The position numbers and the translations under genes were made by a program. A stretch of 21,425 nucleotides of DNA from a virus. Taxonomy: Duplodnaviria; Heunggongvirae; Uroviricota; Caudoviricetes. Shown piece after piece: positions 4,241-9,932 of this stretch (position 1 is the first letter of the stretch; each line of letters starts with the position of its first letter). The notes beneath the pieces were generated by a model, which was not told the origin of the DNA, did no database searches, and worked only from the letters and a program-made list of their open reading frames with translations. Location of the stretch: the IMG/VR virus record IMGVR_UViG_2802429219_000008; one strand, written 5' to 3'.

Positions 4241-4297
4241 AAAACGGCGGCAGAGCAGTCACGGAGTAAAACTGATACCGCCAAACGTCACCAGAAA
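4241..4297 (-). ncRNA. dicF: DicF small regulatory RNA (ftsZ-targeting sRNA) with intrinsic terminator
   Basis: Minus strand reads TTTCTGGTGACGTTTGGCGGTATCAGTTTTACTCCGTGACTGCTCTGCCGCC followed by GTTTTTAAA: the DicF sequence as I recall it, ending in a GC-rich hairpin (GGCGG...CCGCC) plus U-run. Located between the ydfABC-like genes and dicB as in Qin. Confidence 0.75.
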
Positions 4298-8700: not shown

Positions 8701-9039
8701 ATGGGAATTATTGAAAAGATATTAGCGTTCCAGATAGATCACGATCTATTTTCTTCAGAAGAAGATAAAGTACTGGGTATTGCACGACTGGCTGTTGATA
8801 ATGGTTATAATCACTTAACAGACAGGCAAAAAAATGTGTTGGCGAGTCATTTAACCAAACGTTGTACGGGACATACAGATCTTGGAGGTCATCACAACGA
8901 TTGTAATAGAGAATTATCAGGCGAAAATTTATTAAATGCATACGAGCAATGCGATGATCCCGATGCCTTGCAATGTGAATCTTGCATAAGCGAAGCCTGT
9001 TACGAACGGCATGTGTGGGAGAAAAATTACTCAGACTGA
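8701..9039 (+). CDS. hypothetical Cys/His-rich protein (112 aa) in an AT-rich island
   Basis: ORF track 8701..9039(+). AAGGA Shine-Dalgarno (aataaggaattataATG). Preceded by ~300 bp of AT/GT-rich non-coding DNA. C-terminal half has clustered Cys/His (CTGHTDLGGHHNDC...CESCISEAC). No family recognised. Confidence 0.5.
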   Translation: MGIIEKILAFQIDHDLFSSEEDKVLGIARLAVDNGYNHLTDRQKNVLASHLTKRCTGHTDLGGHHNDCNRELSGENLLNAYEQCDDPDALQCESCISEACYERHVWEKNYSD

Positions 9040-9308
9040 TGGTGCAACTTCATCATCAATGAAATGCAGGCAGATGTGCACATGCTACTTAAAGGACAAA
9101 ATGTTTTGCGGGAAAAGGGAAGTTAAGTAGAATTGCTGCGGGTGCTTGAGGCTATCTGCCTCGGGCATGAACACCAAAGGCAGATAGAGAAAAGCCCCAG
9201 TTAACATTACGCGTCCTGCAAGACGCTTAACATTAATCTGAGGCCAATTTCATGCTAGACACATGTAGGTTAGCCTCTTACGTGCCGGAAGGCAAGGAGA
9301 AGCAGGCT

Positions 9309-9464
9309 ATGAAGCAGCAAAAGGCGATGTTAATCGCCCTGATCGTCATCTGTTTAACCGTCATAGTGACGGCACTGGTAACGAGGAAAGACCTCTGCGA
9401 GGTACGAATCCGAACCGGCCAGACGGAGGTCGCTGTCTTCACAGCTTACGAACCTGAGGAGTAA
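9309..9464 (+). CDS. hokD: Hok-family type I toxin HokD (51 aa); in-frame mok-like extension begins at 9252
   Basis: MKQQKAMLIALIVICLTVIVTALVTRKDLCEVRIRTGQTEVAVFTAYEPEE is recognised as Hok/Gef family. The 70-aa ORF 9252..9464 (MLDTCRLASYVPEGKEKQA + Hok) parallels MokC/HokC. Upstream leader holds a 9-bp inverted repeat (ctatctgcc / ggcagatag). Confidence 0.85.
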   Translation: MKQQKAMLIALIVICLTVIVTALVTRKDLCEVRIRTGQTEVAVFTAYEPEE

Positions 9465-9532
9465 GAGACCCGGCGAGGGAGAAATCCCTCGCCACCTCTG
9501 ATGTGGCAGGCATCCTCAACGCACCCGCACTT

Positions 9533-9564
9533 AACCCGCTTCGGCGGGTTTTTGTTTTTATTTT
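9533..9564 (+). terminator. Rho-independent terminator downstream of hokD
   Basis: CCCGC-TTCG-GCGGG hairpin followed by TTTTTGTTTTTATTTT. A second perfect 9-bp stem with GAAA loop (GGCGAGGGA gaaa TCCCTCGCC, 9472-9493) lies just 3' of the hokD stop. Confidence 0.6.
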
Positions 9565-9680
9565 CAACGCGTTTGAAGTTCTGGACGGTGCCGGAATAGA
9601 ATCAAAAATACTTAAGTAGCGCGCAGGGATAAGAGGGATGGTCCCTTAAAGGGGAGAGCTAATTATCCGGAAGGATTCTG

Positions 9681-9932
9681 ATGATGAACATCGAAGAACT
9701 GCGTAAAATTTTTTGTGAAGATGGCCTCTATGCTGTGTGCGTTGAAAATGGAAATCTTGTTAGTCATTACCGCATTATGTGTTTGCGAAAGAATGGGGCT
9801 GCGTTAATTAATTTTGTGGATGGTCGAGTGACAGACGGATTTATCTTGCGCGAAGGTGAGTTTGTCACTTCATTACAGGCACTGAAAGAGATCGGAATAA
9901 AAGCAGGCTTTTCAGCTTTTGCAGAAGAATAA
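9681..9932 (+). CDS. rem: Rem-like small protein (83 aa)
   Basis: ORF track 9681..9932(+). GGAAGGA Shine-Dalgarno. Recalled as the Qin rem product; position between hokD and ydfU matches Qin. Confidence 0.6.
   Translation: MMNIEELRKIFCEDGLYAVCVENGNLVSHYRIMCLRKNGAALINFVDGRVTDGFILREGEFVTSLQALKEIGIKAGFSAFAEE

What the first reader, a model, noticed from the sequence alone, without database searches (positions are those of the whole stretch)
9040..9565. mokD/hokD locus with structured leader and two 3' hairpins; Sok-like antisense RNA not located
The Hok ORF has an in-frame upstream start at 9252 giving a 70-aa Mok-like product (MLDTCRLASYVPEGKEKQA-Hok), parallel to MokC/HokC. The leader holds a 9-bp inverted repeat (ctatctgcc at ~9152-9160 and ggcagatag at ~9178-9186). 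Downstream there is a perfect 9-bp GAAA-loop hairpin and a classic terminator. In hok/sok loci a ~60-nt antisense Sok RNA overlaps the mok start from the opposite strand; I could not pin down its promoter or terminator here, so whether this copy is regulated or decayed is open.
Basis: partly seen in the sequence, partly recalled or inferred. Interest (0 to 1): 0.4.

Follow-up and report, generated by a model that had tools for sequence, protein, structure and literature searches.

The report
Intact prophage hok/mok/sok toxin-antitoxin module
This is an ordinary, sequence-intact copy of the well-known hok/sok toxin–antisense-RNA killer module carried by a lambda-like prophage of E. coli, and the "missing" Sok antisense RNA gene can be placed at 9260→9190 on the minus strand.

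Summary
The locus is a complete hokD-type type I toxin-antitoxin module in a Qin-like lambdoid prophage.

- **Relatives.** It is 93.8% identical over the aligned locus to hokW/mokW/sokW of Stx2 phage VT2-Sakai (Sp5), which has been tested experimentally. Its Hok protein is identical to K-12 HokD.
- **Sok.** Its promoter is TTGCCT-17-TAACCT (9295→9267). It has a 15-nt single-stranded 5' tail and a long terminator hairpin. This position coincides exactly with the deposited sokW feature and, to within 6 nt at the 3' end, with K-12 sokC, sokB and sokE.
- **Other control elements.** All are present and carry the majority allele among 72 distinct relatives: hok promoter, tac/fbi 5'–3' pairing, the ucb anti-SD box, the SD/dcb target hairpin, the protective 3' hairpin and the terminator.
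- **K-12.** K-12 hokD is the truncated copy. Its homology starts only at 9295.
- **Verdict.** Already known and regulated by sequence. Expression was not tested here.
- **Side observation.** A sharply localised hypervariable patch (9245–9266: the Sok 5' tail and target loop) shows about 30 times the diversity of hok third-codon positions, while hairpin stability is kept. This suggests specificity alleles.

The parts
9106..9133 (+). hok/mok mRNA promoter: -35 TTGCGG (9106-9111), 16-nt spacer, -10 TAGAAT (9128-9133)
   Evidence: Read from the sequence. The -10 box aligns with the TATAAT, TAGGAT, TAAGAT and TATGAT boxes of K-12 hokC, hokB, hokE and R1 hok. TAGAAT is present in 63 of 72 distinct relatives. 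It is identical in VT2-Sakai. The start site is inferred and was not mapped.
9140..9556 (+). Predicted full-length mok-hok mRNA (about 417 nt); the 5' end is inferred at G9140 and the 3' end in the T-run after the terminator
   Evidence: The Rfam model starts at 9140. GGGTGCTTGAGG is kept in 68 of 72 relatives. The fold has MFE -176 kcal/mol, z = -7.8.
9140..9161 (+). tac (translational activator element) at the 5' end; it pairs with fbi in the full-length RNA and with ucb in the processed RNA
   Evidence: Inverted repeats I1, I3 and I9. The MFE of the full-length RNA pairs 9140-9151 with 9514-9526. That helix is 99.5% paired across 72 loci, with one G-C to A-U double change. Element names follow PMC9841398.
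9178..9198 (+). ucb (anti-SD box): pairs with the mok SD in the closed form and with tac in the open form
   Evidence: In the full-length MFE, 9194-9200 pairs with 9238-9244, which includes the GAGG of the mok SD. In the MFE of the leader alone, ucb pairs with tac instead.
9190..9260 (-). Sok antisense RNA gene (71 nt): 5' tail 9260->9246, terminator hairpin 9245->9194, then UUUU
   Evidence: It maps exactly onto the sokW misc_RNA of AP000422. The annotated K-12 sokC, sokB and sokE map to 9184/9185-9259/9260. The 71-nt fold has a 15-nt free tail plus one long hairpin, -28.7 kcal/mol. The 77-nt version gives z = -5.25.
9267..9295 (-). Sok promoter: -35 TTGCCT (9295-9290), 17-nt spacer, -10 TAACCT (9272-9267); transcription start G at 9260
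   Evidence: It is the only match to this pattern in the window. TAACCT is present in 59 of 72 relatives and TTGCCT in 55 of 72, with a 17-nt spacer in all 72. The same -10 box is the target of the sokW promoter-less mutation (primer YO-421).
9240..9277 (+). mok SD (GAGG, 9240-9243) and the SD/dcb hairpin that is the Sok target; loop 9255-9261, mok AUG in the upper stem
   Evidence: Rfam consensus structure. MFE of the leader alone. Ten of the 12 haplotype variants fold to this SD/dcb hairpin form; all 12 score -10.3 to -13.5 kcal/mol.
9245..9266 (.). Hypervariable patch: Sok 5' tail, target loop and the 3' arm of the upper stem
   Evidence: Pi is 0.356 here, against 0.012 at hok third-codon positions and 0.053 in the rest of the leader. 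There are 16 haplotypes among 66 loci that encode an identical Hok, and 22 haplotypes with about 8 major classes among 118 prophage loci.
9252..9464 (+). mok reading frame (70 codons, in frame with hok)
   Evidence: It is 72% identical to K-12 MokC and is at the same position as mokW.
9309..9464 (+). hok toxin gene (51 aa), preceded by the SD AAGGAG at 9294-9299
   Evidence: Pfam HOK_GEF scores 82.9 bits. RefSeq annotates it as hokD in the best-matching genomes, and the protein accession is the same as in K-12 (WP_000813254.1). It is 92% identical to HokW and 42% to R1 Hok.
9472..9493 (+). 3' stem-loop (9 bp, GAAA loop): predicted protective 3' end of the processed, translatable mRNA
   Evidence: I10. 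The helix is 98.9% paired across 72 loci, with a G-C to A-U double change in 5 loci. The role is inferred from the R1 model (PMC9841398).
9505..9526 (+). fbi (fold-back inhibitory element), complementary to tac
   Evidence: I3 and I9.. The core CCTCAACGCACCC is present in 59 of 72 relatives.
9533..9559 (+). Intrinsic terminator of the hok mRNA (7-bp stem, TTCG loop, T-run)
   Evidence: I20.

Best explanation
The region is a complete hok/mok/sok type I toxin-antitoxin module of the hokD/hokW subfamily, carried by a Qin-like lambdoid prophage.

Proposed mechanism, by analogy with plasmid R1:
1. A promoter at 9106-9133 makes a mok-hok mRNA of about 417 nt, starting near 9140.
2. In the full-length RNA the 5' end (tac) pairs with the 3' element fbi (9505-9526), and the ucb box sequesters the mok Shine-Dalgarno sequence. 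This RNA is stable but silent.
3. Slow 3' trimming back to the GAAA hairpin (9472-9493) removes fbi.
4. tac then pairs with ucb. The mok SD moves into the SD/dcb hairpin (9240-9277) and becomes open both to ribosomes and to Sok.
5. Translation of mok (9252) carries ribosomes into hok (9309), producing a 51-aa membrane toxin.
6. On the opposite strand a constitutive promoter (9295->9267) makes the unstable 71-nt Sok RNA (9260->9190). Its 15-nt single-stranded 5' tail pairs with the target loop and the mok start, blocking translation and leading to duplex cleavage.
7. When Sok transcription stops, Sok decays first and Hok is made. Triggers could be loss of the element, transcription shut-off or prophage induction.

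Shown here: the presence, position, conservation and predicted folds of every element. Inferred from homologues: transcription, processing, toxicity and the biological role. The role is most likely help with lysis on induction and/or prophage retention or abortive infection.
For: - **Family match.** Rfam RF01794 at 9140-9314, 117 bits. Pfam HOK_GEF at 82.9 bits.
- **Sok position.** The locus is 93.8% identical to hokW/mokW/sokW of VT2-Sakai. The deposited sokW, mokW and hokW features map to 9190-9260(-), 9252-9464 and 9309-9464. K-12 sokC, sokB and sokE map to within 6 nt at the 3' end (9184/9185-9259/9260).
- **Sok promoter.** TTGCCT-17-TAACCT is unique in the window and is the majority form among 72 relatives. 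The same -10 box was mutated to silence sokW (PMC8621323).
- **Sok shape.** The 71-nt fold is a free 15-nt tail plus a terminator hairpin. The 77-nt version folds with z = -5.25.
- **Structural switch.** The full-length MFE shows tac/fbi closure with ucb on the mok SD. The leader-alone MFE (-60.1) is the open tac/ucb plus SD/dcb form, against -58.0 for the enforced closed form.
- **Covariation.** 21 pairs carry double changes, against 7.8 in shuffles (0 of 500 shuffles reach it). 95.5% of cells are paired, against 32.5-42.2% when partners are slid.
- **No private damage.** The window has no private allele anywhere in 9118-9560.
- **Commonness.** 2,975 of 5,426 complete E. coli genomes hold at least 80% of 9040-9600.
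- **Function in relatives.** sokW RNA was detected and neutralises HokW (PMC8621323). HokD is listed among the toxic controls in 10.1101/2025.08.07.668861.
Against: - There are no expression data for this window. Start sites, 3' ends and processing are inferred.
- A generic sigma-70 and terminator scan finds nothing on the minus strand, and the Sok -10 box matches only 3 of 6 consensus positions.
- The MFE of the trimmed RNA (9140-9497) still shows the closed ucb/SD pairing. The predicted switch is seen only when the leader is folded alone.
[quoted passage not shown] Intact sequence therefore does not guarantee killing activity.
Confidence: 0.88

Rival explanations
1. The locus is an inactive, decaying hok remnant, as the K-12 chromosomal copies are. 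It would be transcribed poorly or not regulated by Sok.
For: K-12 hokD, which encodes the identical protein, is a truncated copy behind relBE. Its homology to the window starts only at 9295. K-12 hokC, hokE and hokA are flanked or interrupted by IS elements. Chromosomal hok loci were reported not to give post-segregational killing. The consensus scan sees no minus-strand promoter.
Against: No IS element, truncation or private substitution is present. Every control element carries the majority allele among 72 relatives. Structure-preserving covariation shows ongoing selection in this subfamily. The 93.8% identical hokW-sokW module is functional.
Confidence: 0.08
2. The Sok gene is the plus-strand stretch 9140-9314, as a literal reading of the Rfam 'sok antitoxin' hit would suggest.
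For: Rfam RF01794 hits the plus strand.
Against: In K-12 the same model hits the strand of hokC and hokB, opposite to the annotated sokC and sokB. The model therefore describes the hok mRNA leader in its open form. The real antisense RNA is the 71-nt complement inside it.
Confidence: 0.02
3. The anatomy is the same, but the main role is classical addiction (prophage retention) or abortive-infection defence, not help with lysis during induction.
For: The VT2-Sakai record annotates mokW and hokW as 'prophage maintenance'. [quoted passage not shown]
Against: The only direct test of a near-identical prophage module found earlier growth arrest and about a twofold gain in phage release on mitomycin C induction (PMC8621323). 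No enrichment next to defence systems was found. Nothing in the sequence discriminates between these roles.
Confidence: 0.4

Closest known systems
hokW / mokW / sokW of Stx2 phage VT2-Sakai (Sp5) and 933W (AP000422; PMC8621323)
   Same: The organisation is identical at identical relative positions, with 93.8% DNA identity over the aligned locus. The hok and Sok promoter hexamers are the same. Sok is 71 nt and includes the extended terminator hairpin. The tac and fbi elements are the same. Hok is 92% identical. Both sit in a lambdoid prophage.
   Different: Six of the 15 nt in the Sok 5' tail and target loop differ. The Hok C-terminus is ...FTAYEPEE here and ...FVDYESEK in HokW. The 3' hairpin carries compensated changes. 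The terminator and downstream flank are unrelated. The genomic neighbourhood differs: the early region of a Qin-like prophage here, the end of the Stx2 phage record there.
E. coli K-12 hokD (relF) in the Qin prophage
   Same: The Hok protein is identical (same RefSeq accession). DNA identity is 99.7% from 9295 to 9600 (H28). The downstream neighbours are the same: rem, then an unnamed hypothetical-protein gene, then ydfU.
   Different: K-12 lacks everything upstream of 9295: the hok promoter, tac, ucb, the mok start, Sok and its -10 box. These are replaced by relB-relE. The window is the untruncated form of this locus.
E. coli K-12 hokC / mokC / sokC (gef)
   Same: mok is in frame with hok. 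The Mok-Hok product is 72% identical. The leader elements are alignable, and sokC maps to within 6 nt at the 3' end (9184-9260).
   Different: sokC is 59 nt. The window Sok carries an insertion of about 18 nt that lengthens the terminator hairpin. In K-12, IS186 sits 20 nt downstream of hokC. The window copy has its full 3' region.
hok/sok (parB) of plasmid R1
   Same: The element set and order are the same: tac, ucb, mok SD, dcb, hok SD, 3' hairpin and fbi. Conserved boxes are alignable. The Rfam model matches both. The mechanism is taken from this system (PMC9841398).
   Different: Hok identity is only 42%. The R1 locus is on a plasmid. The Sok terminator hairpin is longer here. The 5' hairpin loop is shorter here.

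Membership tests
[quoted passage not shown] | Small hydrophobic toxin of the Hok/Gef family | tested here: met
   Pfam PF01848 scores 82.9 bits against a cut-off of 22. The protein is identical to K-12 HokD.
[quoted passage not shown] | An upstream mok reading frame with its own SD that overlaps hok | tested here: met
   ATG at 9252, in frame, 70 codons, with GAGG at 9240-9243. The ATG is kept in 71 of 72 relatives and the SD in 71 of 72.
[quoted passage not shown] | A cis-encoded antisense Sok RNA gene, with its own promoter and terminator hairpin, overlapping the mok translation initiation region | tested here: met
   9295->9190 (-) coincides exactly with the deposited sokW and to within 6 nt at the 3' end with K-12 sokC, sokB and sokE. 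Promoter pattern. Fold. This rests on sequence and homology only, with no RNA data for this window.
[quoted passage not shown] | Long-range tac/fbi pairing between the 5' and 3' ends of the full-length mRNA | tested here: met
   9137-9160 is complementary to 9505-9529. The pairing is present in the MFE. It is 99.5% paired across 72 loci with one covarying pair.
[quoted passage not shown] | Alternative closed form (ucb on the mok SD) and open form (tac/ucb plus SD/dcb) of the leader | tested here: met
   The closed form appears in the full-length MFE. The open form is the MFE of the leader alone, -60.1 against -58.0 kcal/mol, and it equals the Rfam consensus structure. The trimmed 358-nt RNA still folds closed in the MFE, so the switch is only partly reproduced in silico.
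[quoted passage not shown] | A stable stem-loop that forms the 3' end of the processed mRNA, upstream of fbi | tested here: met
   9472-9493, a 9-bp stem with a GAAA loop, with compensated changes in relatives.
[quoted passage not shown] | Hok toxicity, neutralisation by Sok, and 3' processing of the mRNA | not testable with these tools
   Only by homology: hokW-sokW (PMC8621323), and HokD listed among the toxic controls in 10.1101/2025.08.07.668861.
Rfam RF01794 ('sok antitoxin', CssrC) | Score at or above the gathering threshold over the full model | tested here: met
   117.1 bits against 59, covering model positions 1-157. The model is in the hok-sense orientation.
K-12-type relBE-hokD arrangement | hokD directly downstream of relE, with no leader of its own | tested here: not met
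   No relBE is present. A 112-aa ORF with no family match (8701-9039) and a full leader lie upstream. K-12 homology begins at 9295.

The most novel reading that the evidence does not exclude
The 22-nt patch 9245-9266 (Sok 5' tail, target loop and the complementary stem arm) may act as an allelic specificity cassette. Lambdoid-prophage hok/sok modules that are otherwise nearly identical fall into about 8 major, similarly frequent tail/loop types that differ at 5-9 of 15 positions, while hairpin stability is held at about -12.6 kcal/mol. If so, each prophage's Sok would silence only its own hok, and co-resident copies (median 2, up to 10 places matching this query per genome) would stay independent. 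The evidence shows the hypervariability and the conserved structure. It does not show lack of cross-talk or any selection for it.
Probability: 0.4. Interest if true: 0.45.

Novelty: already known. Interest (0 to 1): 0.18.

Why it matters
For annotation, there are three practical points.
- The hokD-type loci I inspected in RefSeq carry only the hok CDS. The mok frame and the Sok RNA can be added at defined coordinates.
- The Rfam 'sok' model reports the hok-sense strand, so it should not be read as giving the strand of the Sok gene.
- The window shows what the rearranged K-12 hokD looked like before relBE replaced its control region.

Biologically the module is textbook. The only point that might merit follow-up is the sharply localised hypervariability of the Sok recognition tail among prophage copies. 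It bears on how many near-identical killer modules can coexist in one genome.

Tried and rejected
- **Consensus scan.** The sigma-70 and terminator scan of 8950-9700 found no minus-strand site. I rejected this as evidence of absence. The thresholds exclude the 3-of-6 Sok -10 box and the long, bulged terminator hairpin, both of which are validated in sokW.
- **Rfam strand.** Reading the plus-strand Rfam hit as the Sok gene was rejected after the orientation test on K-12.
- **Trimmed mRNA fold.** Folding 9140-9497 to see the open form failed: the MFE kept the ucb/SD pairing. Only the leader folded alone gave the open form.
- **Co-resident copies.** I tested whether copies in one genome avoid sharing a Sok tail haplotype. 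Only 9 within-genome pairs could be assembled, 8 different and 1 identical. Random expectation is about 1 identical pair (sum of squared haplotype frequencies about 0.11). There is no power and no conclusion.
- **TadA-type hairpin.** A local hairpin presenting UACG at the Tyr47 codon was not predicted by a local fold.
- **My own errors.** Searches failed on an off-by-one error in the hok start. One search failed on a search term that was too short.
- **Literature.** Searches of the held library found no description of the hypervariable Sok tail. This is not proof of novelty. Subscription papers, including Pedersen & Gerdes 1999 and Gultyaev et al. 1997, are not in the library.

Full report
**Observation.**
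- The ORF 9252..9464 (+) encodes the 70-aa product MLDTCRLASYVPEGKEKQA-MKQQKAML.... The Hok part starts at 9309 (51 aa).
- The 9-bp inverted repeat 9152-9160 / 9178-9186 is the perfect core of a 21-nt imperfect repeat, 9141-9161 / 9178-9198 (I1).
- The GAAA-loop hairpin is at 9472-9480 / 9485-9493 (I10). The terminator is at 9533-9550 plus a T-run (I20).
This continues as 9146-9160 with 9505-9519 (I9 and I3).
- None of this is chance. Rfam RF01794 scores 117.1 bits against a gathering score of 59 (E = 1.7e-26) over 9140-9314. Pfam HOK_GEF scores 82.9 bits against 22. The predicted full-length RNA folds with z = -7.8.

**Context.** The window is a Qin-like lambdoid prophage of E. coli.
- DicF lies at 4245-4296 (-).
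- Annotation of the best-matching genome for this segment (99.6% identity) gives the order dicB, dicA, dicC..., hokD, rem, ydfU.
- No complete genome in the collection matches the whole window better than 97.6% over 89%. The window is therefore a mosaic variant.
- In K-12 the same hokD-rem-ydfU block follows relB-relE. Homology to the window begins only at 9295, 14 nt before the hok ATG.
- K-12 hokD is thus the truncated copy and the window holds the untruncated form.
- The intact form is the common one. 2,975 of 5,426 complete genomes hold at least 80% of 9040-9600. At least 75 of 80 prophage contigs encoding an identical Hok have the leader. 79 sequenced phages carry it, including Stx phages and P1-like phages.

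**Locating Sok.** Three independent mappings agree.
1. In a five-way alignment with R1-type hok/sok and K-12 hokC, hokB and hokE, the curated K-12 sokC, sokB and sokE features project to window 9184/9185-9259/9260 on the minus strand.
2. The GenBank record of phage VT2-Sakai annotates sokW, mokW and hokW. In a gap-free pairwise alignment (93.8% identity over the aligned locus) they project to 9190-9260 (-), 9252-9464 and 9309-9464.
3. The minus strand reads TTGCCT-17 nt-TAACCT at 9295-9267, with a G at 9260 seven nt downstream. This is the only such site in the window.

Further support for the Sok assignment:
- Among 72 distinct relatives, 59 carry TAACCT (10 carry TAATCT), 55 carry TTGCCT, and all have a 17-nt spacer.
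- In PMC8621323 the sokW promoter-less mutant was made with primer YO-421, which replaces exactly this AGGTTA/TAACCT box. The mutation unmasked HokW toxicity. sokW RNA was seen on northern blots and rescued growth in trans.
- The 71-nt RNA folds into a 15-nt single-stranded 5' tail, one long hairpin (9245->9194) and UUUU, at -28.7 kcal/mol. The 77-nt version gives z = -5.25. This is the Sok architecture.
- Relative to sokC, sokB, sokE and R1 Sok, the hairpin is lengthened by an insertion of about 18 nt. The insertion is present in 69 of the 72 aligned hokD-type loci.

**A caution about Rfam.** The 'sok' model hits the plus strand here. In K-12 it hits the strand of hokC and hokB, opposite to the annotated sokC and sokB. 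The model therefore represents the hok mRNA leader in its open conformation, not the antisense RNA.

**The hok mRNA control elements.** Names follow PMC9841398.
- **Promoter.** -35 TTGCGG (9106-9111), -10 TAGAAT (9128-9133). The -10 box aligns with those of hokC, hokB, hokE and R1 and is kept in 63 of 72 relatives. The start is inferred near G9140.
- **Closed form.** The MFE of 9140-9558 closes the molecule through tac (9140-9151) and fbi (9514-9526). It pairs ucb (9194-9200) with the mok SD region (9238-9244). It also pairs the mok start (9252-9264) with 9501-9513, next to fbi.
- **Open form.** Folded alone, the leader 9140-9314 prefers the open form: a tac/ucb stem, the complement of the Sok terminator hairpin, and the SD/dcb hairpin 9240-9277 with a 7-nt loop. 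This scores -60.1 against -58.0 kcal/mol for the enforced closed form. It is also the Rfam consensus structure.
- **Limitation.** The trimmed RNA 9140-9497 still folds closed in the MFE. The switch is therefore only partly reproduced by thermodynamics.
- **The two 3' hairpins have different roles.** 9472-9493 is the counterpart of the stem-loop that ends the processed, translatable RNA in R1. 9533-9550 is the transcription terminator. fbi lies between them.

**Comparative support.** I aligned 72 distinct hokD-type loci (Escherichia, Shigella, Kluyvera and prophage contigs).
- The window-derived structure is 95.5% paired, against 32.5-42.2% when partners are slid.
- 21 pairs carry double changes, against 7.8 in shuffles (0 of 500 shuffles reach it). 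The structure was derived from the window sequence, which inflates the paired percentage but not the double-change counts.
- The window has no private allele anywhere in 9118-9560.
- It carries the majority form of every control element.
- There is no sign of decay.

**Mok.** The frame varies among near-identical relatives.
- 58 of 72 have the in-frame 70-codon form seen here.
- 8 have a 19-codon leader whose TGA overlaps the hok ATG (ATGA).
- 5 read into hok out of frame.
- Codons 2-5 are hypervariable.

This fits the published view that translation of mok matters, not its product (PMC9841398).

**Side observation: a hypervariable patch.** I used the 66 distinct loci that encode an identical Hok.
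- Nucleotide diversity is 0.012 at hok third-codon positions and 0.053 over the rest of the leader. It is 0.356 over 9245-9266, excluding the invariant mok ATG.
- The patch covers the Sok 5' tail, the target loop and the opposing stem arm. The Sok +1 position (9260) and both promoter hexamers are invariant or nearly so.
- There are 16 haplotypes in this set. Among 118 prophage loci there are 22, with about 8 major classes at 7-24 copies each. The window carries the second most common type.
- Haplotypes differ at 5-9 of 15 tail positions.
- Cognate hairpins all fold at -12.6 ± 0.4 kcal/mol. Chimeras of 5' and 3' halves give -11.5 ± 2.0 (permutation 200 of 20,000).
- Diversity about 30 times the synonymous level, with structure preserved, points to long-lived or positively selected recognition alleles rather than drift.
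- Whether this prevents cross-talk between co-resident copies is untested. The 9 within-genome pairs I could assemble (8 different, 1 identical) match random expectation.
- I found no description of this in the searchable library. The key older papers are not held.

- Its closest characterised relative is hokW/mokW/sokW of Sp5/VT2-Sakai (Hok 92% identical).
- It is the untruncated form of K-12 hokD (identical protein).
- It resembles hokC/mokC/sokC (72%) and is more distant from R1 Hok (42%).
- Its biological role cannot be read from the sequence. The one direct study of a near-identical prophage copy found that Sok disappears on mitomycin C induction, and that HokW advances growth arrest and raises phage release about twofold. 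Addiction and phage exclusion remain possible.
- The finding is correct, already known and ordinary.

Noticed in passing
window 9245-9266: A hypervariable patch covers the Sok 5' tail, the target-hairpin loop and the opposing stem arm. Pi is 0.356, against 0.012 at hok third-codon positions. There are about 8 major haplotypes at similar frequencies, and hairpin stability is conserved. These may be specificity alleles.
   Followed up: partly
window 9140-9314 (+); L003, L004: Rfam RF01794, named 'sok antitoxin', is built in the hok-sense orientation. In K-12 it hits the strand opposite to the annotated sokC and sokB. An Rfam-based annotation would put 'sok' on the wrong strand and make it about 100 nt too long.
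   Followed up: yes
window 9294/9295; L002 2440-2530: The K-12 relBE-hokD junction falls at the upstream edge of the Sok -35 box (9290-9295). K-12 keeps only the hok SD, the CDS, fbi and the terminator.
   Followed up: yes
alignment A2, window 9252-9311: Three mok architectures occur among near-identical loci: in frame with hok (58 of 72), a 19-codon leader ending in an ATGA stop/start overlap (8), and out-of-frame overlap (5).
   Followed up: partly
window 9447-9452: UACGAA, spanning the Tyr47 codon of hok, is invariant in all 72 relatives although its flanks vary. From my own knowledge it resembles the tRNA-Arg anticodon loop, the known TadA substrate. The preprint 10.1101/2025.08.07.668861 reports a hokB-like A-to-I (TadA) recoding for hokC, hokD and hokE at the cysteine-46 position. 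A local fold did not present the motif in a loop.
   Followed up: partly
window 9201-9236 (Sok hairpin); alignments A1, A2: The Sok terminator hairpin is about 18 nt longer than in sokC, sokB, sokE and R1. The extension is present in 69 of the 72 aligned hokD-type loci, including Kluyvera; only 3 have a short version.
   Followed up: partly
window 8701-9039 (+): A 112-aa Cys/His-rich ORF lies directly upstream of the hok promoter, in the place that relBE occupies in K-12. It has no Pfam or NCBIfam match and is annotated as hypothetical in RefSeq.
   Followed up: partly
window 4245-4296 (-): A full-length DicF sRNA match (72.5 bits against 48) confirms the Qin/dic-type prophage context.
   Followed up: no
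window 14562-15001 (+) and 18017-18448 (+): Two matches to the cspA thermoregulator 5' UTR and gene (159 and 110 bits against 78). They are probably prophage cold-shock genes of the cspB, cspF or cspI type.
   Followed up: no
L022 (Acinetobacter idrijaensis, 275 bp), L027 (Xanthomonas pisi, 431 bp), L060 (Candidatus Scatousia MAG): hokD-type sequences with 96-100% protein identity sit on very short contigs (275, 431 and 2,995 bp) of unrelated taxa. This looks like E. coli or phage DNA contamination in those assemblies.
   Followed up: no
H112 (Punavirus P1 MH422554), H32-H38 (roughly 77-123 kb plasmids): Copies of the whole module at about 88% identity occur on P1-like phage-plasmids. The hokD-type module therefore moves between lambdoid prophages and phage-plasmids.
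   Followed up: no
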